From positions 1-55,699 of IMG/VR virus record IMGVR_UViG_3300045303_000132: a DNA stretch of 55,699 nt. One strand, written 5' to 3'. Made by a program: the position numbers and the translations under genes. Shown piece after piece: positions 214 to 55,277 of the stretch. Each line of letters starts with the position of its first letter. Position 1 is the first letter of the stretch. The notes below the pieces were generated by a model, which saw only the letters and a list, made by a program, of their open reading frames with translations, was not told the DNA's origin and did no database searches. Source of the stretch: a virus. Taxonomy: Duplodnaviria; Caudoviricetes.

Positions 214-247
214 TAGGCTAGCCGTAGGCAGCCCACAAGGGGTCGCC
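214..247 (+). promoter_or_regulatory. Phage promoter/leader repeat copy 1 (TAGGCT -10-like plus 5' hairpin)
   Basis: taggctagccgtaggcagcccacaaggggtcgcc, then RBS and ATG 271; TAGGCT fits the actinobacterial TANNNT -10. Confidence 0.75.
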
Positions 248-270: not shown

Positions 271-690
271 ATGGCAACCGCCACGGCTCGCAAGACCAGC
301 ACCAAGAGCAAGGCCGCCCGCTTCAACCCCGACACCCTGCCCCAGACGGGCACGGGTCAGCTCCGCCAGGGCGGCGACTACAAGCCGTCCATCCGGGCGC
401 TGGGCACCTTCGCCAAGGGCGACCCCAAGAACGCCGCCCACGTCAAGGCCCTGATCCACCTGGGCTGGGTGAAGCCCGGTGGCGTCAACGCCGCGAGCAA
501 GAGCCCGGCGTTCTCCACCGCCAACGAGGCGGGCCTCCCCGCCGAGTGCTGGACCGTGGACGCCCCGGCTGGCCCGCAGATCAGCGCCAACCTGCTCGCG
601 CTGGCGGAGGCGGGCGCGCCCGCGGAGGCCCTGGACAGCCTGTGGAGCGCCTACCTCGGCTCCGGCAAGGCCGAGGCGGACGTGCTCTAG
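271..690 (+). CDS. Early hypothetical protein; normally coded paralog of 53105..53521
   Basis: High-GC codon usage, follows the promoter repeat; shares LPxTGT, ALxHLGW and PQxxAxLxALAxAGAPAxAL..W..Y.G with the 53105 protein. Confidence 0.85.
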   Translation: MATATARKTSTKSKAARFNPDTLPQTGTGQLRQGGDYKPSIRALGTFAKGDPKNAAHVKALIHLGWVKPGGVNAASKSPAFSTANEAGLPAECWTVDAPAGPQISANLLALAEAGAPAEALDSLWSAYLGSGKAEADVL

Positions 691-697
691 AAGCACC

Positions 698-731
698 GGG
701 CTCGCCCTCGCTGGGGGGTGAGGGCGAGCCC
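698..731 (+). terminator. GC-rich hairpin, probable intrinsic terminator
   Basis: gggctcgccctc ... gagggcgagccc 12-bp stem just after stop 690; no U tract. Confidence 0.55.
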
Positions 732-790
732 ACCCGCTCCGTGGTCGCGTAGGCGACGCCGACGTCATGGTCGGGCGGGGCACTCCGGCA

Positions 791-21991: not shown

Positions 21992-22858
21992 ATGAGCGAT
22001 GAGACAATGGACCTCTACCGAGGGATGGTGGTGGAGCGGCACAACATCTGGTGCGCCCGCCAGATGGGCGAGCCCCAGCCGTGGACTCACGACGTGGTGC
22101 TGGCGAACCGGAAGTTCACCAATATGTTCCGCGTCCTCGACCCCGGCTCGCAGTTCGTGTTCGACCTTGACAACGAGGACCCGGTGACCGTGATCGCCCG
22201 GCTGGTCTTCTACCGGATCACGAACCTGCCGTCTACGTGGTACGCGATGCGGGCCGCGCACGGACGCTACCCCACCGCCAATGACTTCACCCACTCGTCG
22301 GCATTCCTGTTCCAGATTCTCGACGCGCACCGGCTGAGTGGGAATCGCATCTTCAGCGGGGCGTACATCATCGTCCCTGAGCCCGGAACCGCGAACGACA
22401 AAGTGAGCGGGGCGCTACGCCTGACGGCCCTGTTCGTCAGGGAGAGGGCCGAGGCGTTCCTGGACGCCACCACTCAGGACGAGCGGTTCGACGTGCTGCG
22501 GTCCACCCCTGGTCTCGGGCCGTTCCTCTCGATGCAGATCCTCACCGATTGGGGCTACCTCCAGACCGCGGAGCCGGACCTGTCGTTCATCGTGGCTGGC
22601 CCCGGTGCTCGCCGTGGTGCCGCGCTGCTCTACCCGGCCAAGAAGCCGGAGGACGTGATCTACGACCTCGCCTTCGACTGGATGGATCATCCTTCCGTTA
22701 GGCTGGTCGGTCGCTCCCTCACGCTGATGGACGTGCAGAACACTCTCTGCGAGTTCAGCAAGTACGCGCGAGAACTCGTCGCCCCCCGCAAGAAGACGAC
22801 GTACCAGCCCTCGCACCCCGGCGCTCAGCCGGTCCCCGTTATCCCCCGATGGTGGTAG
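21992..22858 (+). CDS. 5-hydroxymethyl-dU DNA kinase family protein (aGPT-Pplase1 / HMUDK helical domain)
   Basis: ERHNIW..R..G.PQPWT.D.VL...KFTN.FR..D, FSGAY, HhH-like PGLGPFLSMQI..D, GPGARRG, DVQNTLCEFSKY. Confidence 0.82.
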   Translation: MSDETMDLYRGMVVERHNIWCARQMGEPQPWTHDVVLANRKFTNMFRVLDPGSQFVFDLDNEDPVTVIARLVFYRITNLPSTWYAMRAAHGRYPTANDFTHSSAFLFQILDAHRLSGNRIFSGAYIIVPEPGTANDKVSGALRLTALFVRERAEAFLDATTQDERFDVLRSTPGLGPFLSMQILTDWGYLQTAEPDLSFIVAGPGARRGAALLYPAKKPEDVIYDLAFDWMDHPSVRLVGRSLTLMDVQNTLCEFSKYARELVAPRKKTTYQPSHPGAQPVPVIPRWW

Positions 22859-22894
22859 TGGAACACCCGACCACCACGAGCCTAGCCTGCCTGC

Positions 22895-22920
22895 TAGGCT
22901 AGGGGTACGGCAACGCCCCT
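22895..22920 (+). promoter_or_regulatory. Promoter/leader repeat copy 8 (degenerate)
   Basis: gcctgctaggctaggggtacggcaacgcccct then RBS gaaagg. Confidence 0.6.
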
Positions 22921-22935
22921 AGAGAAAGGTGACAC

Positions 22936-24459
22936 ATGACCCAGACATACACGTTCGCCACGGCAAGCGAGGCGCTCCCATTCATCTGCTCTCGTATCCT
23001 GGACGTCGGCGACGAGGTCGGCAGCAGGAACGGGCGGGTGAAGGAATTCCTGAACACCCAGATCGTGCTGACCGACCCGCAGCGGCGGGAGATCCTCACT
23101 CTCAACCGCAAGGCCAACGTCTTCGCGCAGATTGCTGAGACGATGTGGGTGCTGGCCGGGCGCAACGACATCGAGTGGCTGAGCGCCTACCTCCCACGCG
23201 CCAAGGACTACAGCGACGACGGGGAGACGTGGAGGGGCGGCTACGGCCCGCGGATCCGCGACTTGACCTTGTTCAACGGACACCGGCTTGATCAACTCGC
23301 CTACGTCGTGGACGTACTTCAGGCCGACCCACTGTCCCGGCGTGCGGTGATCGCGATCTACGACCCTGCCGTGGATACGGAGCCGGGTAAGGACATTCCC
23401 TGCAACGACTTTCTCCAGTTCCAGAGTCGCCTCGGTGCCCTGCACATGACGGTGACCGTGCGGTCGAACGACCTGATGTGGGGCTGGTCGGGCATCAACG
23501 CATTCGAGTGGAGCACCATCCAGGAGATTGTGGCCCACCTGCTCGGCATCGCCGTGGGCACGCTGACGTTCAACATCGGCAGCCTGCATCTCTATGACCG
23601 GCATTGGGACAAGGCCAGTCGTCTCAAGTACGAGGCCGACCCGTGGGCGATCACTCCGTTCCAGATACCGGACGCGGTGGATCGGACGTTGGAGTGGGTG
23701 GACATCTACATCGACCGTTGGTTCGAGTGGGAGGCGTTGTGCCGGAAGGGCGAGGCCACGCTGGAGGGTCTGGGTGAGATCGAGGAGCCGCTGTTCCAGT
23801 CCTGGGCGGCGGCGATTGCGTACTTCTGGCAGCGCGAGGACCACTGGCTCCAGATGCTCCGGCGCACGGCGTTGGCAGCAGCCATAGCCAGGACCCCTGC
23901 CAGCGTGCTCTCAGAGGCCCGTACAGCGTCGTCCAGCGGTGCGCCGGGGGTAACCCACAACCTAGCCGCGCACGAGCGCACACGGGCGTTCTACGCCTTC
24001 GTTACCGACCTGCACGCCAAGAAGCACGCGTCGTACGGGAACTCGTGGATGAAGCGGGGCGAGAAGCTCTCCATTCTGGCGAACATGGCTCGTAAGGTGG
24101 ACCGGCTGGGGGTCGGCGATGAGTACGACAGTTCGGCGGACACCCTGATCGACCTCCTGGTCTACGCGAGCAAGTATCACTGCTGGCTCCTCGGCTGTGA
24201 GGCGAGCCCGGAGAACGTGAATCAGGGGCTGGCCGTGGCTTTGGCAGAAGAAGAGGAGACCGTGGGGCAGGCGGCGGACATCGCCATCGTGGACATCGTC
24301 GACGACTTCAACCTCTACTGCAACAACATCGACACGTACATCACCGACGAGAAGGTGGACTTCATAGGCGAGCTGATCCTCCGAGTGACGCCCATCGCCC
24401 GCGATGTCTGGTACGAAGAGACCCACGGCACCGAGTACCGCGGAGCGGACGTAGACTGA
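22936..24459 (+). CDS. Thymidylate-synthase-family protein (likely dUMP hydroxymethylase) fused to an Nmad1/DUF1599-like helical domain
   Basis: GYGPR, SRRAV, DIPCN catalytic Cys, RSNDLMWG...N, GSLHLY; C-terminal KKHASYGNSW...KVDRL...DTLIDLLVYA. Confidence 0.82.
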   Translation: MTQTYTFATASEALPFICSRILDVGDEVGSRNGRVKEFLNTQIVLTDPQRREILTLNRKANVFAQIAETMWVLAGRNDIEWLSAYLPRAKDYSDDGETWRGGYGPRIRDLTLFNGHRLDQLAYVVDVLQADPLSRRAVIAIYDPAVDTEPGKDIPCNDFLQFQSRLGALHMTVTVRSNDLMWGWSGINAFEWSTIQEIVAHLLGIAVGTLTFNIGSLHLYDRHWDKASRLKYEADPWAITPFQIPDAVDRTLEWVDIYIDRWFEWEALCRKGEATLEGLGEIEEPLFQSWAAAIAYFWQREDHWLQMLRRTALAAAIARTPASVLSEARTASSSGAPGVTHNLAAHERTRAFYAFVTDLHAKKHASYGNSWMKRGEKLSILANMARKVDRLGVGDEYDSSADTLIDLLVYASKYHCWLLGCEASPENVNQGLAVALAEEEETVGQAADIAIVDIVDDFNLYCNNIDTYITDEKVDFIGELILRVTPIARDVWYEETHGTEYRGADVD

Positions 24460-24776
24460 TGACGACCTACACCGCACTTCTTGCGCTGCCGGACGGGCTC
24501 ATGGCGGCAGATGCTGCCGCCCGTATCCCCGGAGCAGTGGTCGTCGACAACGTCCAGGCTGGTGTGTGGGTGTCTTGGAGCACCGAGGCCGACACCGACA
24601 ACGAGGGGATCCAGGCCCTCCAGGAAATCCGGCTTCGGGCTGAGATGTTCGCCGAGTTCGCGGATGGAGGCGTCACCCCGTCCGGTGCCGATCCCTCCTT
24701 GTTCCAGACTACCCCGTTCATCATCCTGCGAGGTGCTGCATTCATCGTCCACACGGAAGAGGTGCTATGTCTGTGA
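24459..24776 (+). CDS. Hypothetical protein in the modification cluster
   Basis: TGATG coupling. Confidence 0.65.
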   Translation: MTTYTALLALPDGLMAADAAARIPGAVVVDNVQAGVWVSWSTEADTDNEGIQALQEIRLRAEMFAEFADGGVTPSGADPSLFQTTPFIILRGAAFIVHTEEVLCL

Positions 24777-25015
24777 CGATCAACCACGGCACGAGAAGCG
24801 GGTACTACGCTCATCGCCGCCTGAGCGAGCCGCCGTGCGACGACTGTCGTGCGGCGATCAACGAGTACATCCGGGAGTACCGGAGCAGGACTGGCCTATC
24901 CCGCAATCGGGCTGGTGAGAAGATCCGGCGGAAGGCGTTGGCCGCGCTGCGGGACCGACACCGCGAGGAGTACGAGGATCTCCTGGTCGAGTTCCGTGCG
25001 GAAGAGATGATCTGA
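24767..25015 (+). CDS. Small Zn-binding DNA-binding-like protein
   Basis: HGTRSGY..HRR..E.PC..CR motif common in actinophages. Confidence 0.7.
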   Translation: MSVTINHGTRSGYYAHRRLSEPPCDDCRAAINEYIREYRSRTGLSRNRAGEKIRRKALAALRDRHREEYEDLLVEFRAEEMI

Positions 25016-25209
25016 TGGACCATCCGACGTTTGTCACCATCGAATACTGGCACCAGATGACTGCTTCCTGGGAGACCGGGCACGCCGGGATCAACCTGAT
25101 GAACCCTGCCACCTACGTCCAGAAGTTGGCGAAGCGCGGGGTCATCGCACGAGCCGTCGAGAAGGACACCGGGGTGACCGTGTACGGCGAAGGTGCAGAC
25201 CTCCTCTGA
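25015..25209 (+). CDS. Hypothetical protein
   Basis: TGATG coupling on both sides. Confidence 0.65.
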   Translation: MDHPTFVTIEYWHQMTASWETGHAGINLMNPATYVQKLAKRGVIARAVEKDTGVTVYGEGADLL

Positions 25210-25907
25210 TGGACGTGGTCTACGTGTGCCGAAACGGGGACAACCCCGAACTCCGGTACTCCCTCCGCACGCTGGCGAACGTGGATCACGACCGCGTGTG
25301 GATCTTCGGCGGCGCGCCCACCTGGATCGACTTCACCGCCGTCACTCACCAGAAGCGAGCGCAGTGTGGGACCCCGTACTCCTCCACCCGGAGCCATATC
25401 GCAGCCGCGTGCAACACCCCAGAGGTGAGCGACCCCTTCGTACTCTGGAACGACGACTTCTTCGCGATGCACCCGGTCGGCACCGTGCCGCTCTACCACC
25501 GTGGCCCGCTGGAGCCCCTACTCGAGAAGTACGTCAAGATCAGGACGCCGTGGGGGAAGGGGTTACTCCAGACAGCCGCGATGATGGGAGGGCGCGGACT
25601 GCTGGCGGGCGCGATGTGCTACGACGTTCACCTCCCACTGGTTGTCTGCAAGGCAGAGATGCGGGAGGCGCTGCGGTTGGCGAAGAACGCTTCGACCGAC
25701 GCCATTCACGTGAGGACGTTGTACGGGGCCTTGTCAGGGCTGGACGGAGTGGAGCACCATGACCCGAAGTTGATGCGTCGAAGCGACCCGTTCCCGCGTG
25801 GTGCGTGGCTGTCTTCCAGCGACGACACATTCCGTTCAGCCGTGGAGCCGGTGCTGAGATACCTGTTCCCGGACGCATCACTCTACGAGAAAGCGATGTT
25901 CAGGTGA
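25209..25907 (+). CDS. Stealth-like sugar-1-phosphate transferase (GT-A fold)
   Basis: MDVVY (CR1-like), ELRYSLR...VWIFGGAPTW, FVLWNDDFF (CR2-like), H.P (CR3-like), SSSD (CR4-like). Confidence 0.75.
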   Translation: MDVVYVCRNGDNPELRYSLRTLANVDHDRVWIFGGAPTWIDFTAVTHQKRAQCGTPYSSTRSHIAAACNTPEVSDPFVLWNDDFFAMHPVGTVPLYHRGPLEPLLEKYVKIRTPWGKGLLQTAAMMGGRGLLAGAMCYDVHLPLVVCKAEMREALRLAKNASTDAIHVRTLYGALSGLDGVEHHDPKLMRRSDPFPRGAWLSSSDDTFRSAVEPVLRYLFPDASLYEKAMFR

Positions 25908-26581
25908 CCCTCGGGATCCTACTCCCCACGCGGGGACGACCAGATAACCTCCACCGCTTCCTCTCGGCCACCGAGGACACTGCCGACGACTGGCACTTGT
26001 ACCTTCGGCTCGATTACGACGACCCGCAGGCACCCGCGTACGACGAAGTCATCGGGCGGGCGTACCGGCGCATCACGGTCCGCCACGGTCCCCGAGTCGG
26101 TTTCGGGGCGTCCCTGAACGAACTCGCCTTCCGGGCCGAGCGGGACGGGGTGTCGCACCTCGGCATGTTCGGCGACGACGTAGTGCCGGAGACCCCGCAT
26201 TGGGACACCCGGCTGGTCGAGGCGCTGGGCGACGACCTCGGCATCGCCTACGGTGACGACGGCCTACGGCACAAGCATGGACGCGACCTGCCGACGCACT
26301 ACGTCACCCACGCGGAGGTCTACCGCCGCCTCGGCTACCTGTCGCCACCCACGATCCGTCACCTGTATCTGGACAACGTGGCGAGGGACGTGGGTCTGTA
26401 TCTGAAGAACTTCGTGTTCGTGCCGGTCAGCATCAGGCACCTCCACCCGTGGGCCGAGGGCGAGCAGATCCACGACTCCACCTACGCCGAGGGCGGGCGC
26501 AACGCCGACCTCCGCCTCGCCGACCGGAGGGCGTACATCCAATGGACGCAGGACCGTGAGTGGAAGCGCCGCCTTCGGTGA
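25904..26581 (+). CDS. Glycosyltransferase family 2 (GT-A)
   Basis: ILLPTRGRP, D.DD, MFGDDVVP, H.Y.D, H.HP. Confidence 0.8.
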   Translation: MTLGILLPTRGRPDNLHRFLSATEDTADDWHLYLRLDYDDPQAPAYDEVIGRAYRRITVRHGPRVGFGASLNELAFRAERDGVSHLGMFGDDVVPETPHWDTRLVEALGDDLGIAYGDDGLRHKHGRDLPTHYVTHAEVYRRLGYLSPPTIRHLYLDNVARDVGLYLKNFVFVPVSIRHLHPWAEGEQIHDSTYAEGGRNADLRLADRRAYIQWTQDREWKRRLR

Positions 26582-27549
26582 CACTGACCGCGTTCCTCCA
26601 CGGCTACCCGCCGCTCTGGTCCATGGGCGGAGAGATGTCTACGCACCGCACCCTCCGCGCCGTGCCGGGTTCCATTGTTTACACGAAGACGCTCGAGGAC
26701 TATCAGTTCGACGGGGTCTCGGTGAAGCCAGCGACGGGTACGTCCTTCCAGTGCATCAAGGACGACGCAAGATCCGCCGGGGCGACTGTCCTGTTCGGGC
26801 ACTCGACATTGTCCATGGACACTATCCGGGCTGCGAGGCAGTTGAAACTCCCGTCCATCCTCGCCGTCCACGCGCCACGCCGATTCGGGGCAGACCTGCA
26901 TCGGGCGAAGTCGTCAGCCACCGTGCGTCTCTACAACACGGAGGCCGCTCGGAAGGACTGGCACGACCCGAGGGGGTGGCTGCTGCACCCGCCTGTCGGT
27001 GGTCCGTCCGACTTGCCGGAGGGGCCGGGCAACGCGATAACGCTGACCTCGTCTCTCGTGAACAAGGGGGCGGCTCGCGTGCTCAAACTGGCGACACGGC
27101 GCTGGGACCAGAGGTTCATCATCGTGGAATCGCCTGCGCATCCCACCCACGGCGACCCTGACTTCTGGCACGATGCGCAGAAACTCGACAACGTGGAGAT
27201 CTGGCCGCGCCTGCACCCCGACGAGATGGGCAAACTCTGGGCCGAGACTCGCGTGCTGCTGGTCCCATCGCGGTACGAGACCTACGGCATGGCCGCGATG
27301 GAGGCGGCGTGGCACCATATCCCCTCGGTACACGTGGACACCCCCCACGTCCGCGAGGGAATCGGCACGGCGGCGTGCCTCATCAAGACGACGCATCTCG
27401 AGGAACTGGACCACGCGCTCACCGAGGTAGAACTAGAGCACGACGTCTGGGCAGACCGGGCCTTCCACCGCGCTGAAAGCCTCGCGCAGCGAGAATCAGA
27501 TGAGTTGGCCCTGTTTGCGGCGGGTGTGGCCGGGCTCACACCCCTGTAG
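26578..27549 (+). CDS. Glycosyltransferase, GT-B fold (GT4-like)
   Basis: HGYPP...GGE, NKG, VLLVPSRYETYGMAAMEAA (EX7E). Confidence 0.85.
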   Translation: MTLTAFLHGYPPLWSMGGEMSTHRTLRAVPGSIVYTKTLEDYQFDGVSVKPATGTSFQCIKDDARSAGATVLFGHSTLSMDTIRAARQLKLPSILAVHAPRRFGADLHRAKSSATVRLYNTEAARKDWHDPRGWLLHPPVGGPSDLPEGPGNAITLTSSLVNKGAARVLKLATRRWDQRFIIVESPAHPTHGDPDFWHDAQKLDNVEIWPRLHPDEMGKLWAETRVLLVPSRYETYGMAAMEAAWHHIPSVHVDTPHVREGIGTAACLIKTTHLEELDHALTEVELEHDVWADRAFHRAESLAQRESDELALFAAGVAGLTPL

Positions 27550-35917: not shown

Positions 35918-37708
35918 CTAGTCGTCCAGCCTCTCCCACCAGTTGAGCGCCACGAGGACGAGGGTGTCGTCGCACTTGGGATCTGGGTGGGCGTAGAAGA
36001 CGTCAGTCGGGCTGTAGTCGCCGAAGATGATGGGCCAGTTCACCTTGCCGAAGATCAGCCGGTACTTCAAGCCCGAGTCAGCGAGCGCCCATGAGTTGAG
36101 CCTCCCCTCGTGGCCATTGAGGACGAGACCCTCGACGCTGCCCGAGCGGGTGGTCCGCATCAGCCTGCGACGCACCGGCTCGACCACGAGATTGCCGTGG
36201 ACCGGAGTGTGCAGGATGGACCCTTCCTCCGTGATCTGTGCCACGACGGGTCGATCGTTGTTTCCGAGAATCTCGATCTTGTTGCCTGTCCTCGGGTTCA
36301 CCATCCACACGCTCGCGGTGGTGAAGGTGTCCTTGACCTGAGGACCCATCACTGAGGTTACGCCGTCGATCCGGGTCAGCACGTTCCAGGTGTGCTCCAC
36401 GCGGAGGTCCGCGGTGATGTCCCGGATGCTGAAGTTCGTGCCAATGAAGAAGTCAGTGGCAGGAGCCCACTTACGAGGAACACCGTCAGCATCCCAGATT
36501 GTGACCGCCACCCCGTCACGCCAGAGCGAGATCTCGTCGGGAGTGCCGAGAACACGGGTGCCGGTGATGACGGGGAAGGGGTCGCTGAACGTGACGGCGA
36601 GATTCGTGACCGCCGGACCGTTGCCAGTGTGAACGGTGTCGAACTCCTTCTCCACGTACGACCAGATAGGCGCTTCTTCTGCCGCCACACGCGGATGGAT
36701 GGAGTCGGTCGTCCGCAGAACCACCTTGCCGTGACCACCTGGCACGGGCACACCCTTGGACGGGAACCAGTCGCGAGTTGCAGAGTCCACATCCCACGTC
36801 GACTTCGCGATGGTATCGGAACCCTGATGGAGTTCGGCCTGCCACGACACCTGATCGGCCACTGTCCAGGTCACGGTGGGGCTGCCGTCGTCAGTGACCG
36901 AGGGCGGGTTGACGATCACCGGCTGAACGATGGGCCGGTAGGAGTACGAAACCCACGGGCTCCAAGGACTCGTGCCGCCCCCTCCAGTGGTCATGACACG
37001 CCAGTAGGTGGATGCCCCCGACGCCAGCACCGGAGCGCCCGCAGCGGGCACGTAGCGACCTGAGGGAGCCGGTATCGAGCCGGTGTCGAAGGTGATGCCG
37101 CCGACCGTGCCGTCCGAGGAATACTGGATCTGCTGGTGATCCATATCCTCATCGCCCGTATAGGACAAGATGGGAGTAGGCACCGAGACCGCCCCGCCCT
37201 GCGGAGAGAGGCCGACAGGCTGTGAGTTCGGCGTGTAGTAGTCCACGACCATGACCGGCTTGTTGAGAGCCGCCGACGAGCCCCTGAGGGCGATCGCCGT
37301 GGTGAGGGTGGTGTCGAGCGCCAGACCGAGACGACTCCGGGTGTTGGCCCACGCCGTGACGGAGAAGGAGTAGGGCTGGTCCACGACCGGGGCGGTGATC
37401 GAGGTCGTGGTGATGACAGCACCGAGTGGAGGTCGGTTAGACCACGTGACCGAAGACTTCCACGCCGCCGTGATCGGGAAGATGCGAATGGGCACCGCAC
37501 CCGTCTTGGCCGCAGCCGTCCAGAACTGGACGTTCGCCGCCGTGACCACGGCCCCCTCGGGGATCTGGTCAATGGGGACACGTATCAGAACGCGCTGAAC
37601 AGCGTTGCTCGTGTTCTGGATGGTCAAGGTGCCCGGCGACCCGATAGGGTACGCGGGTCGGTTCTGCTTGATCAGGTAGGTCGTCAGCGGGATGATGATC
37701 TGTGGCAT
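35918..37708 (-). CDS. Minor tail protein (distal-tail-like)
   Basis: Immediately after the tape measure; beta-rich, W.SSVTWSNRP module. Confidence 0.72.
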   Translation of the reverse strand: MPQIIIPLTTYLIKQNRPAYPIGSPGTLTIQNTSNAVQRVLIRVPIDQIPEGAVVTAANVQFWTAAAKTGAVPIRIFPITAAWKSSVTWSNRPPLGAVITTTSITAPVVDQPYSFSVTAWANTRSRLGLALDTTLTTAIALRGSSAALNKPVMVVDYYTPNSQPVGLSPQGGAVSVPTPILSYTGDEDMDHQQIQYSSDGTVGGITFDTGSIPAPSGRYVPAAGAPVLASGASTYWRVMTTGGGGTSPWSPWVSYSYRPIVQPVIVNPPSVTDDGSPTVTWTVADQVSWQAELHQGSDTIAKSTWDVDSATRDWFPSKGVPVPGGHGKVVLRTTDSIHPRVAAEEAPIWSYVEKEFDTVHTGNGPAVTNLAVTFSDPFPVITGTRVLGTPDEISLWRDGVAVTIWDADGVPRKWAPATDFFIGTNFSIRDITADLRVEHTWNVLTRIDGVTSVMGPQVKDTFTTASVWMVNPRTGNKIEILGNNDRPVVAQITEEGSILHTPVHGNLVVEPVRRRLMRTTRSGSVEGLVLNGHEGRLNSWALADSGLKYRLIFGKVNWPIIFGDYSPTDVFYAHPDPKCDDTLVLVALNWWERLDD

Positions 37709-52843: not shown

Positions 52844-52904
52844 GCGGGCAGTGTAGGTCCATGTGTGGGTCGGAGATAGTGGGACGGATGATCGGATATT
52901 CGGT

Positions 52905-52965
52905 CCATGCGCGTAGATCGGCCATTCGCGTGAAGAAAAGCGGATCCATGCGCGTGACGAAAAGC
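52905..52965. repeat. Short direct repeats upstream of terL
   Basis: ccatgcgcgt (52905), ccattcgcgtgaagaaaagc (52922), ccatgcgcgtgacgaaaagc (52946). Confidence 0.6.
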
Positions 52966-53049
52966 CGGTGAGGTCTACCACGGTGATTCTCCGCGCGCAA
53001 ATAAGATGCCGCGCGGCGCCATTTTCCTTGGGTTTGGCCGGGCGCCGGG

Positions 53050-53083
53050 TAGGCTAGCCATAGGCAAGCCAACGGGGCCTGCC
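53050..53083 (+). promoter_or_regulatory. Promoter/leader repeat copy 9, recoded to be TC/GA-free
   Basis: ttgggt-16 nt-taggctagccataggcaagccaacggggcctgcc; RBS tagggg. Confidence 0.75.
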
Positions 53084-53104
53084 ACTAGTAGTTAGGGGCC
53101 ACCA

Positions 53105-53521
53105 ATGGCCAGCACACCCAAGCCGCGCGCACCGCGCGCACCCAAGGCACCCGCGTACGCGGTTGCCAGCCTGCCCACCACGGGCACCCAATACCGGCTT
53201 GCCAGCGGGGGCACGGGCACCGCGCAGCAAACCGCCTACCAGCAGGCGGTGCGCACCCTGCACGCATGGGGTGGTGGCCCCACCACCGCCAACGGCCCGC
53301 TTGTGTTTGCGCTTGTGCACCTTGGGTGGTGCGCAGGTGGCGGTGCCCGTGCCTTGTGTAAGGCCAGCAGCAGCGCAGCCTGCCAACACGGCACGCCGCA
53401 CCTGCAGCATGGCAAGCCTGCCGCGCCACAGGTGTGCGCCACGCTGGCAGCGCTGGCAGCCGCCGGGGCACCCGCTGCCGCGCTGGCAACCGTGTGGGCC
53501 ACCTACACGGGCAAGGCATAG
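53105..53521 (+). CDS. Asp/Glu/Ile-free early protein, paralog of 271..690
   Basis: Promoter repeat and RBS upstream, hairpins downstream, clear homology to the 271..690 protein. Confidence 0.85.
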   Translation: MASTPKPRAPRAPKAPAYAVASLPTTGTQYRLASGGTGTAQQTAYQQAVRTLHAWGGGPTTANGPLVFALVHLGWCAGGGARALCKASSSAACQHGTPHLQHGKPAAPQVCATLAALAAAGAPAAALATVWATYTGKA

Positions 53522-53540
53522 CCCGGCAGGTGCAACAACC

Positions 53541-53669
53541 GGCCCGGCCCGCCCCCACGGCGGGCCGGGCTACCCGCCTAGCACGCCAGCTAGGCGCCCG
53601 GCCCGGCCCGCCCCCCCACGGCGGGCCGGGCCACCCCCGGCCCGGCCCGCCCCCACGGCGGGCCGGGCC
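53541..53669 (+). terminator. Three tandem GC-rich hairpins
   Basis: ggcccggcccgccccc(cc)acggcgggccggg at about 53541, 53600 and 53639. Confidence 0.6.
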
Positions 53670-53844
53670 GGATCTGCGCGCCCGACGGACGCCCCGCGAC
53701 TCTCCGAGACCGCGCCGGAGGCGCGACTCTCCGAGACGCGGCCGGACGGCCCCGACTCTCCGAGACGCGGCCCGACGGCCCCGACTCTCGGGGAGCCCGC
53801 CCACTCTGCCGAGTCCGGCCCTTGGGTGCGACCAGCCCACCGGG

Positions 53845-53878
53845 TAGGCTAGCCGTAGGCAGCCCACCGGGGGTCGCC
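53845..53878 (+). promoter_or_regulatory. Promoter/leader repeat copy 10
   Basis: ttgggt-17 nt-taggctagccgtaggcagcccaccgggggtcgcc. Confidence 0.78.
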
Positions 53879-53895
53879 ATCACGAAAGGCTCACC

Positions 53896-54045
53896 ATGAC
53901 AGACTGTGACTTCCCGCAAGACGTGGACGCCGCTGGGAACCTGACGCACGCCGAGTGCGCCTGCCCGACGCCGGGGGCCGGGCCGTGCCCCTGCGAGGTG
54001 GAGAACGAGGTGTCCTGGCGCGCCAGCGCGCACCCGCTGTCGTAA
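53896..54045 (+). CDS. Small Cys-rich protein (49 aa)
   Basis: RBS gaaagg; MTDCDFPQ...ECACP..GPCPCE. Confidence 0.6.
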   Translation: MTDCDFPQDVDAAGNLTHAECACPTPGAGPCPCEVENEVSWRASAHPLS

Positions 54046-54168
54046 GTCCGCCCGGCCCCGGCCCTCGTACGCGAGGTCCGGGGCCGCTTTCGTACGTTCG
54101 TACGCGATTCTCCGAGAGGGTCGTACTCTTTGAGGAGCAGAGCCCTTGGGTGCGACTAGCCCGCCGGG

Positions 54169-54202
54169 TAGGCTAGCCGTAGGCAGCCCACCAGGGGTCG
54201 CC
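54169..54202 (+). promoter_or_regulatory. Promoter/leader repeat copy 11
   Basis: ttgggt-17 nt-taggctagccgtaggcagcccaccaggggtcgcc. Confidence 0.78.
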
Positions 54203-54221
54203 ACTCACCGGAAGGTCCATC

Positions 54222-54455
54222 ATGGCCCTCAAGTCCAAGCGGGACAACGTCTCCGCCAGCACCACCATTGTCACCACTGTCGTTGTCCACGTCGACCTCG
54301 CCGCGCTGCTGGCCGCGTACGACGTGACGGACAACGTGGTCCTGATGCTCGCCACCCCCAGCGGCCGCGACAAGCGTGTCGTTCTCGGCGGGAACTTCCT
54401 GGTGCCGCCGCACCAGGACCTGAACCTGGACGTGGAGTACCGGGGCACCTACTGA
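54222..54455 (+). CDS. Early hypothetical protein
   Basis: RBS ggaagg after the repeat; hairpin after the stop. Confidence 0.75.
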   Translation: MALKSKRDNVSASTTIVTTVVVHVDLAALLAAYDVTDNVVLMLATPSGRDKRVVLGGNFLVPPHQDLNLDVEYRGTY

Positions 54456-54567
54456 TCCACACGGGGGCGGCGGCTGGGGGGCCGTCGCCCCTTTCGTGGC
54501 CCCCGGCCCGCGATTCTCGGAGACCACAAAACCGAGTCCGGCCCTTGGGTGCGACTAGCCCACCGGG

Positions 54568-54601
54568 TAGGCTAGCCCTAGGCAGCCCACCAGGGGTCGC
54601 C
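54568..54601 (+). promoter_or_regulatory. Promoter/leader repeat copy 12
   Basis: ttgggt-17 nt-taggctagccctaggcagcccaccaggggtcgcc. Confidence 0.78.
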
Positions 54602-54621
54602 ATCACAGTAAGAGGTCCATC

Positions 54622-54843
54622 ATGATCCACATCCACGCGGGTGGCACCACCCGCACCCTTTGCGACCAGCCGCTCGTGCTGGGCACCAACGTGTCGTGGG
54701 AGCAGGCCACCGACGCGACCTGCACCGTCTGCGCCTCCCACTTCGGGCGGCGCGTGCCGCAGTACGGACCCGAGTGGGTGGCCCACGCCACCGGCGGCGG
54801 GCGGATCCTCGACGGGAACCTCCTGGTTGGCGGTGCCGCGTGA
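54622..54843 (+). CDS. Early Zn-binding hypothetical protein
   Basis: H...LC...ATCTVC motif; RBS agagg. Confidence 0.72.
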   Translation: MIHIHAGGTTRTLCDQPLVLGTNVSWEQATDATCTVCASHFGRRVPQYGPEWVAHATGGGRILDGNLLVGGAA

Positions 54844-54935
54844 TCCGCCGGGTGCGGGCGTGGTGGTGGTGCCGCCGGGAGTGTGGCGTCACTGACATCG
54901 CGGTCTACACCTGCGACCGGTGCCGGGTGCGCTGA
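54840..54935 (+). CDS. Micro zinc-ribbon protein (31 aa)
   Basis: GTGA overlap; CREC...CDRC. Confidence 0.5.
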   Translation: MIRRVRAWWWCRRECGVTDIAVYTCDRCRVR

Positions 54936-54981
54936 CCGACACGAGGGGCGGGGCCTGCGGGCTCCGCCCCTTCCGCGGGGC

Positions 54982-55064
54982 CGGGGCCGCGATTCTCCGA
55001 GAACTCACGGCGGGGCCGCGATTCTCGGAGAACTCACGGCGGGGCCGCGATTCTCCGAGAACTC
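54982..55064. repeat. 29-bp tandem repeat, nearly three copies
   Basis: cggggccgcgattctc(c/g)gagaactcacgg units at 54982, 55011, 55040. Confidence 0.88.
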
Positions 55065-55277
55065 GCCCGAGGCCCCCGGCAGGAGCGACAGCCCGCCGGT
55101 CTACGGCGGCGACTCTCCGAGAGGAGCCCGCGCCGCGACGAGCGCGCGCCGCGAAGAGCGGCGGGCCGCGACTCTCGGAGACCTCAGGGCGGGCCGGGTC
55201 TTCGCGCCGACGAGCGGCCCCTCCTCACCGCAGGGAGGAGCAACGCTCGTCGGGAGCGGCCCAGCCGCGGAGGTCGC

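What the first reader, a model, noticed from the sequence alone, without database searches (positions are those of the whole stretch)
271..690. Paralog pair: a normally coded copy and a recoded D/E/I-free copy of the same unknown protein
Seen: 271..690 (139 aa; 11 Asp/Glu, 3 Ile) aligns with 53105..53521 (138 aa; none). The aligned substitutions are the ones that remove GAN and ATC codons: SIRAL to AVRTL, ALIHLGW to ALVHLGW, PQISA to PQVCA, and LAEAGAPAEALDSLW to LAAAGAPAAALATVW. Both sit behind the same promoter repeat, about 2.8 kb apart on the circle. Inference: a two-stage system in which a sequence-constrained starter copy acts first and an unconstrained copy takes over. The product is a candidate anti-defence protein, RNAP-assisting factor or de-modifying factor.
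Basis: partly seen in the sequence, partly recalled or inferred. Interest (0 to 1): 0.9.

Follow-up and report, generated by a model that had tools for sequence, protein, structure and literature searches.

The report
Recoded acid-free twin phage gene
A soil phage carries two copies of one small early gene, one of them rewritten, with its promoter and terminators, so that its DNA never contains the step TC or GA; the same protein domain is fused to DNA-cutting defence enzymes in soil bacteria, which points to an undescribed move in the contest over chemically marked phage DNA.

Summary
ORFs 271..690 (A) and 53105..53521 (B) are paralogs (39% identity, E 5e-9). A has 11 Asp/Glu and 3 Ile; B has none. 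B lies in a 645-bp unit (53026-53670), running from the -35 hexamer to the third terminator hairpin, with no GA or TC on either strand. The next longest such run in the genome is 45 bp.

Selection maintains the purge. A relative differs at 131 of 519 island columns and still has none, against a mean of 26.7 created in simulations. In the B family, 33 of 70 members lack Asp/Glu; in the A family, 0 of 83 do. The five genes from B to A have the lowest GA/TC density of the 54 genes.

New here: the A/B domain is fused to GmrSD-type, HNH and NOV_C nuclease domains in Actinomycetota (Nocardioides, Aeromicrobium).

Best reading (about 0.45): the phage marks thymines in TC context, and B is a mark-free, immediately readable cassette. 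It would encode a free copy of the targeting domain of host modification-dependent nucleases, that is, an anti-restriction factor. The starter/takeover timing was not tested.

This scan has noted GA/TC-free cassettes and recoded twins before, on other phage DNA. My searches found no paper describing one.

The parts
53026..53670 (.). GA/TC-free island: one complete transcription unit
   Evidence: No GA or TC on either strand; the next longest free run genome-wide is 45 bp. It still holds 38 TG, 15 TA and 12 TT, so T is present but is never followed by C.
53028..53055 (+). Promoter of B (read by eye): TTGGGT, 16 nt, TAGGCT. This is a copy of the repeated early promoter with a GA-free spacer
   Evidence: Sequence; repeat element. 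Other copies carry GCGAC in the spacer. The E. coli-consensus scan finds nothing here, so the promoter is an inference from the repeat and from the actinobacterial TANNNT -10, which I recall rather than tested.
53105..53521 (+). Gene B: 138 aa, no Asp/Glu/Ile, pI 10.1, RBS AGGGG instead of a GA-containing one
   Evidence: 70 homologs. AF2 pLDDT 89, pTM 0.80, helical. Unusual codons: GCA 11, CTT 4, CAA 3, TTT 1.
53541..53669 (+). Three copies of a GC-rich hairpin (terminators without a T run), still inside the island
   Evidence: Sequence. RNA fold -133.6 kcal/mol, z -7.46. No T-tail terminator found by the simple scan.
271..690 (+). Gene A: the normally coded paralog, 139 aa, 11 Asp/Glu, mildly GA/TC-depleted
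   Evidence: 83 homologs, all with 6-17 Asp+Glu. 95 GA/TC per kb, tied second lowest of 54 genes. Observed/expected 0.80, z -2.7. AF2 pLDDT 81.4 with the same order of five helices as B.
214..230 (+). Promoter repeat in front of A
   Evidence: Exact match to TAGGCTAGCCNTAGGCA.
53896..54843 (+). Three small early genes between B and A (53896-54045, 54222-54455, 54622-54843), each behind its own promoter repeat and each GA/TC-poor
   Evidence: 107, 120 and 95 GA/TC per kb against 135-189 for the other 49 genes. Observed/expected 0.86, 0.87 and 0.84 against a median of 1.04. Promoters at 53845, 54169 and 54568.
21992..27549 (+). Presumed thymidine-modification module: HMUDK_hel-domain protein, 507-aa thymidylate-synthase homolog, Stealth-like protein and two glycosyltransferases
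   Evidence: PF18723 E 1.7e-46; PF00303 E 1.8e-25; GT4 E 3.1e-8. phrog_14945 glycosyltransferase E 3.2e-33. Stealth_CR2 E 2.5e-4, below Pfam's cut-off.

Best explanation
The phage probably replaces thymine by 5-hydroxymethyluracil and decorates it where T is followed by C. Gene B is the first gene of the early arm. It is kept, with its promoter, ribosome site and terminators, free of every 5'-TC-3' on both strands, so this one unit stays undecorated in an otherwise marked genome. An undecorated unit would not be recognised by host nucleases that cut marked DNA, and the host RNA polymerase could read it at once. Its product B, and its normally coded twin A, would be free-standing copies of a small helical domain. 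Soil actinobacteria attach that domain to GmrSD-type, HNH and NOV_C nucleases. I read the domain as the targeting (DNA- or partner-binding) module of modification-dependent restriction enzymes. On that reading A and B are anti-restriction proteins that compete with or poison those enzymes. Shown: the purge, its conservation under divergence, the gradient over the first five early genes, the paralogy and the nuclease fusions. Inferred: that the DNA is modified, that TC is the context, that the fused domain is a targeting module, and that A/B inhibit anything.
For: (1) 53026-53670 has 0 GA/TC, from 2 nt before the -35 hexamer to the last hairpin. L004 shows the same boundaries. (2) Purifying selection. 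The window and L004 differ at 131 of 519 aligned island columns with no GA/TC in either. The same substitutions placed at random create a mean of 26.7 (minimum 12), and 0 of 20,000 trials stay at zero. A co-occurring variant contig with 28 listed changes also stays at zero. L037 has 3 sites in 541 bp. (3) Both GA and TC are banned, that is, one asymmetric step on either strand of duplex DNA. (4) The genome carries HMUDK_hel, a thymidylate-synthase homolog and glycosyltransferases. In M6, ViI and phiW-14, restriction-resistant sites implicate the dinucleotides TG/TC as the hypermodification context (PMC6449724, passages). 5-hmdU is converted 'in sequence-specific contexts' (PMC8989533). (5) Bulky or phosphorylated 5-hmU in templates turns E. 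coli RNA polymerase transcription down: none with the photocage, and 37% of unmodified after 5-HMUDK treatment (PMC6457204). (6) The five genes with the lowest GA/TC density, and also the lowest observed/expected ratios, are the five contiguous genes from B to A, out of 54. (7) In relatives L017, L021 and L024 the same slot next to the terminase holds a different Ala-rich ORF with 217-250-bp free runs. The slot is purged, not just this protein. (8) Fusions. P0155/P0159 (780 aa) is GmrSD_N 9-254, GmrSD_C 450-598 and an A-like domain at 652-773 (56% identical to A, E 4e-44). It matches PADLOC mREase_IV over 1-606, and a member is a Nocardioides MAG protein on a 155-kb contig. P0163 of Aeromicrobium panaciterrae has an A-like domain at 108-233 (hhalign 98.7%) plus HNH at 572-605, on a 2.8-Mb contig. 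P0169/P0177 has an A-like domain at 5-133 (97.3%) plus NOV_C, on a 365-kb contig. GmrSD-family enzymes cut modified DNA (PMC12409352 passages). Phage proteins that bind and inactivate them are known (TifA, PMC11322646 abstract).
Against: There is no direct evidence that this DNA is modified, or that TC is the context. Only the HMUDK_hel domain was found. No P-loop kinase or aGPT-Pplase2 domain appeared among the 29 of 54 ORFs I scanned with Pfam, and the phage homologs of the HMUDK_hel protein are annotated aGPT-Pplase1/pyrophosphorylase. G001 is a 99%-complete relative with the HMUDK_hel gene (62% identity). It has no A/B homolog and no purged gene; its free runs are simple tandem repeats. 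The closest relative by terminase (94%) keeps B normally coded, with 56 GA/TC in 423 nt. So do L008, L009, L010 and L018-L020. Microbacterium phage Nucci carries a homolog of the HMUDK_hel gene and has no motif-free island. The purged state is scattered on the B tree (13 parsimony changes on a quick, poorly resolved tree). Replication genes that must also be read early have ordinary GA/TC density. A cleavage anywhere else in the genome would still be lethal, unless entry is stepwise or B acts fast. The fusions are few: three architectures, each from one cluster. The targeting role of the domain is inferred from architecture only, and no fold or family match supports it.
Confidence: 0.45

Rival explanations
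1. Clean template only. Decorated thymines hinder the host RNA polymerase. B is written without decoration sites so that it can be made first, and it then helps transcription or handling of the marked genome. A takes over once undecorated or replicated templates exist. There would be no link to restriction.
For: The purge runs from promoter to terminator. GA/TC density is graded over the first five early genes. In vitro, bulky 5-hmU derivatives inhibit E. coli RNA polymerase (PMC6457204). A and B share one promoter type.
Against: Polymerase, primase-helicase and other genes needed before replication have normal GA/TC density. A relative keeps both copies normally coded. The model does not explain why the domain is fused to three kinds of nuclease in bacteria. 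For T7 RNA polymerase, natural thymine hypermodifications had only moderate effects, positive or negative (PMC11550810 abstract).
Confidence: 0.2
2. A host reader of the bare dinucleotide. Something in the host cell that is unrelated to the phage's own modification (a nuclease, a deaminase with TC preference, or a DNA-binding silencer) acts at GA/TC in duplex DNA, and the first-expressed gene is cleared of its sites.
For: The strand-symmetric ban and its conservation. The purge state varies among close relatives, as expected if it tracks different hosts. G001 has the modification-type gene but no purge.
Against: I know of no cellular DNA reader with only two-base specificity (recalled; I did not search for one). 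The rest of the genome has 8565 such sites, so it would need separate protection. Dinucleotide specificity is documented for thymidine hypermodification itself (PMC6449724).
Confidence: 0.17
3. RNA-level escape. The B messenger avoids GA and UC so that an endoribonuclease (a host toxin or a phage-encoded shut-off RNase) cannot cut it.
For: Most of the island is transcribed. The ribosome site is AGGGG rather than a GA-containing one.
Against: The two banned steps are exact reverse complements, as expected for duplex DNA and expected by chance for only about 1 in 15 pairs of RNA words (my arithmetic). The untranscribed promoter spacer is purged too, whereas other copies carry GCGAC there. The second and third hairpins lie beyond the first terminator and are also clean.
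Confidence: 0.06
4. Chance, a mutational footprint (for example TC-directed deamination) or a non-gene.
For: CTT and TTT codons replace CTC and TTC, which is the direction a TC-to-TT process would give.
Against: log10 P is about -43. Asp/Glu positions became Ala/Thr, not Asn/Lys. The island is 75% G+C with only 12 TT and 16 AA. The zero count persists through 131 substitutions. There are 70 homologs and a confident fold.
Confidence: 0.01

Closest known systems
Dinucleotide-context thymidine hypermodification from 5-hmdU (Pseudomonas phage M6, Salmonella phage ViI, Delftia phage phiW-14; PMC6449724, PMC8989533, PMC5889632)
   Same: The genome carries a thymidylate-synthase homolog and a PF18723 HMUDK_hel protein. 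In those phages the mark is placed post-replicatively on T in a two-base context, TG/TC. That is the only documented process with the two-base resolution seen here.
   Different: Here only TC is banned; TG occurs 38 times in the island. Glycosyltransferases stand where amino-acid transferases sit in the studied phages. No P-loop kinase was found among the ORFs scanned. No mark-free cassette is described in the passages and abstracts I read or in the listings of my searches.
Phage inhibitors of GmrSD-type type IV restriction enzymes: T4 IPI* and enterococcal phage TifA (PMC12409352, PMC11322646)
   Same: A small phage protein aimed at a modification-dependent nuclease of a host that faces a modified phage. 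This is the proposed role of A/B.
   Different: IPI* is injected with the DNA (reference titles), whereas B would have to be made after entry. No sequence or fold relation to either was found or specifically tested. A/B are homologous to a domain of the nuclease itself, which I have not seen reported for IPI* or TifA (recalled, not searched).
Reader-nuclease type IV enzymes (the SRA-HNH family TagI/ScoA3IV, PMC6212794 abstract in the listing; others recalled: PUA/EVE- and YTH-nuclease fusions)
   Same: One small domain joined to several unrelated nuclease domains (GmrSD, HNH, NOV_C). This is the architecture typical of modification readers.
   Different: The A/B domain is all-helical and matches no Pfam family or solved fold. 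Base or DNA binding is untested.
Leading-end early anti-restriction genes (T7 gene 0.3/Ocr, T5 first-step-transfer DNA); recalled, not read here
   Same: The first gene of the early arm sits next to the terminase/packaging region, behind a host-type promoter and is insulated by terminators.
   Different: The entry polarity of this phage is unknown. Those phages are not reported to purge a dinucleotide or to keep a recoded twin.
Restriction-site and short-motif avoidance in phage genomes
   Same: Selection removes a short DNA word.
   Different: Known cases are genome-wide and concern 4-6-bp sites. Here the word is two bases, the purge is local (645 bp of 55.7 kb) and absolute, it costs three amino acids, and it is paired with an unpurged twin.

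Membership tests
5-hmdU-derived thymidine hypermodification system | dUMP hydroxymethylase (thymidylate-synthase homolog) | tested here: inconclusive
   PF00303 E 1.8e-25 on the 507-aa protein 22936-24459. Hydroxymethylase versus methylase specificity was not tested.
5-hmdU-derived thymidine hypermodification system | 5-hmdU DNA kinase (P-loop kinase) | tested here: inconclusive
   Only the PF18723 HMUDK_hel domain was found (21992-22858, E 1.7e-46). Its phage homologs are annotated aGPT-Pplase1/pyrophosphorylase. No P-loop kinase hit in the 29 of 54 ORFs scanned.
5-hmdU-derived thymidine hypermodification system | Group transferase acting on phosphorylated 5-hmdU (aGPT-Pplase2/AADT) or an equivalent | tested here: inconclusive
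   No aGPT-Pplase2 hit. Glycosyltransferases and a weak Stealth_CR2 match lie beside the module.
5-hmdU-derived thymidine hypermodification system | Modified thymidine present in virion DNA in a defined sequence context | not testable with these tools
   Only assembled contigs were available. This needs LC-MS or native long reads.
Anti-type-IV-restriction proteins (IPI*, TifA) | Binds and inactivates a GmrSD-family enzyme | not testable with these tools
   Only indirect evidence: the A/B domain is fused to a GmrSD-family protein.
Anti-type-IV-restriction proteins (IPI*, TifA) | Sequence or fold relation to IPI* or TifA | tested here: inconclusive
   No PDB or BFVD match at E <= 0.001 for either model, and best VIA Z 6.1 to unrelated helical proteins. 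No direct comparison with IPI* or TifA was made.
Modification-reader domains of type IV restriction enzymes | The same domain fused to several unrelated nuclease domains | tested here: met
   GmrSD_N+GmrSD_C (P0155/P0159), HNH (P0163) and NOV_C (P0169/P0177).
Modification-reader domains of type IV restriction enzymes | Binds modified DNA or a flipped modified base | not testable with these tools
B is basic (pI 10.1) and A has pI 9.1, which is compatible but not specific.
Restriction-site / motif avoidance | Word under-represented against expectation | tested here: met
   0 seen against 27.2 expected from B's protein and the genome's codon usage. log10 P about -43.
Restriction-site / motif avoidance | Genome-wide extent | tested here: not met
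   The genome has 8565 GA/TC sites. Only 53026-53670 is free, and the four neighbouring genes are mildly depleted.
Leading-end (first-entering) early DNA as in T5/T7 | Lies at the genome end that enters the cell first | not testable with these tools
   The record is a circular-type assembly with a 30-bp end overlap. Contig ends in four runs fall at repeats and show no physical ends.

The most novel reading that the evidence does not exclude
Phages that chemically mark their own DNA keep a 'safe-mode' cassette written without the marking context. Here its cargo is a captured copy of the targeting domain of the host's mark-dependent restriction nucleases. The banned dinucleotide would then report the phage's modification motif directly from sequence. 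The A/B fold would be a new family of modified-DNA readers shared by host nucleases and phage counter-defence.
Probability: 0.35. Interest if true: 0.9.

Novelty: new variant of a known kind. Interest (0 to 1): 0.8.

Why it matters
If the reading is right, three things follow. First, the sequence context of a phage DNA hypermodification could be read from a genome alone, as the word that is banned in one early cassette. That would make the many uncultured phages with modification genes tractable. Second, it would show a counter-move to modification-dependent (type IV) restriction that is not in the papers I searched: the gene for the countermeasure is kept unmarked. Third, the A/B domain has no Pfam family and no fold match, and it is fused to GmrSD, HNH and NOV_C nucleases. 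It would be a new candidate reader or targeting module, testable with one isolate protein (Aeromicrobium panaciterrae, WP_309969501.1). Even if the mechanism is wrong, a promoter-to-terminator unit that keeps a two-base word at zero through 25% sequence divergence, at the cost of all acidic residues, demands a reader that works at two-base resolution.

Tried and rejected
**Family and fold searches**
- No PHROG, Pfam or PADLOC family matched A or B.
- The ESM Atlas gave nothing usable.
- Foldseek against PDB and BFVD gave no match at E <= 0.001 for either model.
- VIA-align wide gave a best Z of 6.1, to unrelated helical proteins. That is below the noise level the tool states for helical models.

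**A-B complex**
- Complex prediction returned no verdict (score 0.02). It says nothing for or against binding.

**Expression**
- No RNA holder was listed among the 6 runs found, so there is no evidence on expression.

**Searches for relatives**
- INPHARED phages: no match for the first 6 kb of the window, for A or for B. The tool states that the window's own record or one very near it may be left out.
- A3 profile in 401 genomes of G006's class: only G006 itself matched, 1 of 401.
I therefore had no DNA for most of the 70 B-family and 83 A-family proteins, and the proposed co-occurrence test with modification clusters was not possible.

**Does the island occur in other phages with related modification genes?**
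- Microbacterium phage Nucci: none.
- G001: only simple tandem repeats.

**General restriction-site avoidance:** rejected, because the ban is on a two-base word.

**TCTCSGAGA arrays as partners of the purge:** rejected. They occur beside both purged and normally coded B genes.

**P0071** (the ORF in the same slot in L017): not detectably homologous to A/B (hhalign probability 0.3%).

**P0174** (1958 aa, LRR): I take it as a spurious profile hit.

**Tree:** the careful tree search did not finish, so the tree I quote is the quick one.

**Supplements:** supplementary files of the papers were closed. The restriction tables of PMC6449724, which I could not see, may refine the TG/TC claim.

Full report
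**What the window is.** It is a complete 55.7-kb IMG/VR virus record with a 30-bp end overlap and 64.9% G+C. Near-identical contigs occur in soil metagenome runs. Structural genes run leftwards from the large terminase (51485-52843/52981, minus strand). Early and replication genes run rightwards from 53,050 across the junction to about 27,500. The repeat TAGGCTAGCCNTAGGCA occurs 10 times on the + strand, against 0.14 matches expected. I read it as a promoter with a TAGGCT -10. Two of the copies lie at 214, before A, and at 53050, before B.

**The observation.**
- A (271..690, 139 aa) and B (53105..53521, 138 aa) are paralogs: 39% identity over 126 residues, E 5e-9.
- A has 6 Asp, 5 Glu and 3 Ile. 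B has none of the three.
- The quoted substitutions are in the alignment.
- The start-to-start distance is 2835 bp on the circle.

**What lies behind it.**
- B sits in a stretch, 53026-53670, with no GA and no TC dinucleotide. The genome has 8565 such sites, and its next longest free run is 45 bp.
- The stretch starts 2 nt before the -35 hexamer (TTGGGT, 16 nt, TAGGCT). It ends at the foot of the third of three GC-rich hairpins. It is therefore one transcription unit.
- T is present (38 TG, 15 TA, 12 TT) but is never followed by C on either strand.
- The promoter spacer lacks the GCGAC of the other copies, and the ribosome site is AGGGG.
- Given B's own protein and the genome's codon usage, 27.2 GA/TC would be expected. 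None is seen (z -6.8). Rare codons such as GCA, CTT, CAA and TTT are used.

**Selection.**
- Two IMG/VR relatives (L003, L004; B 74% identical) have free runs of 547+ and 604 bp with the same boundaries.
- The window and L004 differ at 131 of 519 aligned island columns. The same substitutions placed at random create 26.7 GA/TC on average, never fewer than 12 in 20,000 trials.
- A variant contig in run X3 with 28 listed changes also creates none.
- A contig binned with an Actinomycetales MAG (L037; B 71% identical) has 3 sites in 541 bp.
- Asp/Glu positions became Ala/Thr, not Asn/Lys, and the island is 75% G+C. This is not a deamination footprint.

**Family picture.**
- B has 70 homologs. 33 lack Asp+Glu, 30 also lack Ile, and 52 have at most two of the three.
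- A has 83 homologs, all with 6-17 Asp+Glu.
- The two families are sister clades. On the quick tree the purged state is scattered within B.
- A and B co-occur. They share one contig in L012 and have neighbouring locus tags in one NCBI MAG.
- Normally coded B genes exist (L006/L012, L008, L009, L010, L018-L020), including in the relative whose terminase is 94% identical. Those carry Glu where A has an invariant Glu (EAGAP), while purged B has Ala. The purge therefore overrode a protein-level preference.

**Position matters.**
- The five genes with the lowest GA/TC density are B (0), 54622-54843 (95), A (95), 53896-54045 (107) and 54222-54455 (120 per kb). The other 49 genes have 135-189.
- The same five have the lowest observed/expected ratios after allowing for their proteins.
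- They are contiguous and form the head of the early arm, next to the terminase.
- In L017, L021 and L024 the same slot holds a different Ala-rich ORF with 217-250-bp free runs.

**What could read a two-base word in duplex DNA.**
- The genome encodes a PF18723 HMUDK_hel protein, a thymidylate-synthase homolog and glycosyltransferases.
- In M6, ViI and phiW-14, thymidine hypermodification is post-replicative and context-specific, and resistant restriction sites implicate TG/TC (PMC8989533 and PMC5889632 passages; PMC6449724 passages).
- Bulky 5-hmU derivatives depress transcription by E. coli RNA polymerase in vitro (PMC6457204).
- I therefore infer that TC is this phage's marking context and that the cassette stays unmarked.
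- Against this: no chemistry is available, no P-loop kinase was found among the 29 of 54 ORFs scanned, and G001 and Nucci lack any purged gene.

**What the protein is.**
- There is no family or fold match.
- Both copies give confident helical models with the same helix order.
- A search for longer relatives found a 780-aa protein. It has GmrSD_N, GmrSD_C and a C-terminal A-like domain that is 56% identical to A (E 4e-44). It is seen in two full-length variants and four shorter calls, one from a Nocardioides MAG on a 155-kb contig.
- A profile search of 1.84 billion representatives gave 19 clusters. Among them are an Aeromicrobium panaciterrae chromosomal protein with an A-like domain plus HNH, and a 296-aa protein with an A-like domain plus NOV_C.
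- One small domain on three kinds of nuclease is the architecture of targeting or reader modules of modification-dependent restriction enzymes. GmrSD enzymes cut modified DNA (PMC12409352), and phages are known to inhibit them (PMC11322646 abstract).
- Hence my reading: A and B are free copies of that module that act against such nucleases.

**Verdict.** The mechanism is inferred, with confidence about 0.45. The closest known systems are TS-context thymidine hypermodification, type IV restriction with its inhibitors, and leading-end early anti-restriction genes. None of them includes a mark-free recoded twin. Earlier notes of this scan report similar cassettes and twins in other phages; I did not test those. 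My paper searches found no description in print.

Noticed in passing
window 53697-55185: The near-palindrome TCTCSGAGA occurs 10 times against 1.2 expected, all intergenic among the early genes. The same arrays occur in relatives with purged B and with normally coded B (L004, L037, L005/L012, L010, L019, L020). It may be an operator for an early regulator.
   Followed up: partly
window 52844-53025: The gap between the terminase and the island carries repeats of the type (G/A)TCCATGCGCG...GAAAAGC. Similar repeats stand at the same place in L037 and, as GGAGAAATCCATGTG arrays, in G001. These are candidate packaging (cos/pac) or late-promoter control sites. Contigs of four runs break there.
   Followed up: partly
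G001 (L034-L036) 36000-37650: A relative with a 77% identical terminase has about 1.6 kb of non-coding tandem arrays beside its terminase. Some are saturated with GA/TC (GACTCCTCCGGCGAG units). Others are free of it (GGCAGGCCAGGGCAG and CTTGCTTGCTGG units).
   Followed up: partly
L017 4654-5001 (also L021, L024): An Ala-rich 115-aa ORF sits in the slot of B. It is not detectably homologous to A/B. About 6 GA/TC lie in about 465 bp from promoter to terminator (my count from the printout).
   Followed up: partly
window 22936-24459: The thymidylate-synthase homolog is 507 aa. The Pfam domain covers only residues 17-229, and the C-terminal half has no match.
   Followed up: no
window 21992-22858: The PF18723 'HMUDK_hel' protein is all helical domain. 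Its 52 phage tblastn hits (42 in Microbacterium phages) are annotated hypothetical, aGPT-Pplase1 or pyrophosphorylase, often next to a small kinase gene. Calling it 'the kinase' may be wrong.
   Followed up: partly
proteins P0155, P0163, P0178; genome G006: Cellular carriers of the A/B domain are all Actinomycetota (Nocardioides, Aeromicrobium, Phycicoccus). Phage contigs with A and B were binned with an Actinomycetales MAG. This hints at the host group of the phage clade.
   Followed up: partly
window 690-760: A strong hairpin (GGGCTCGCCCTC...GAGGGCGAGCCC) follows gene A. The mildly purged block ends there, and the next gene (828-1112) has ordinary GA/TC density.
   Followed up: no
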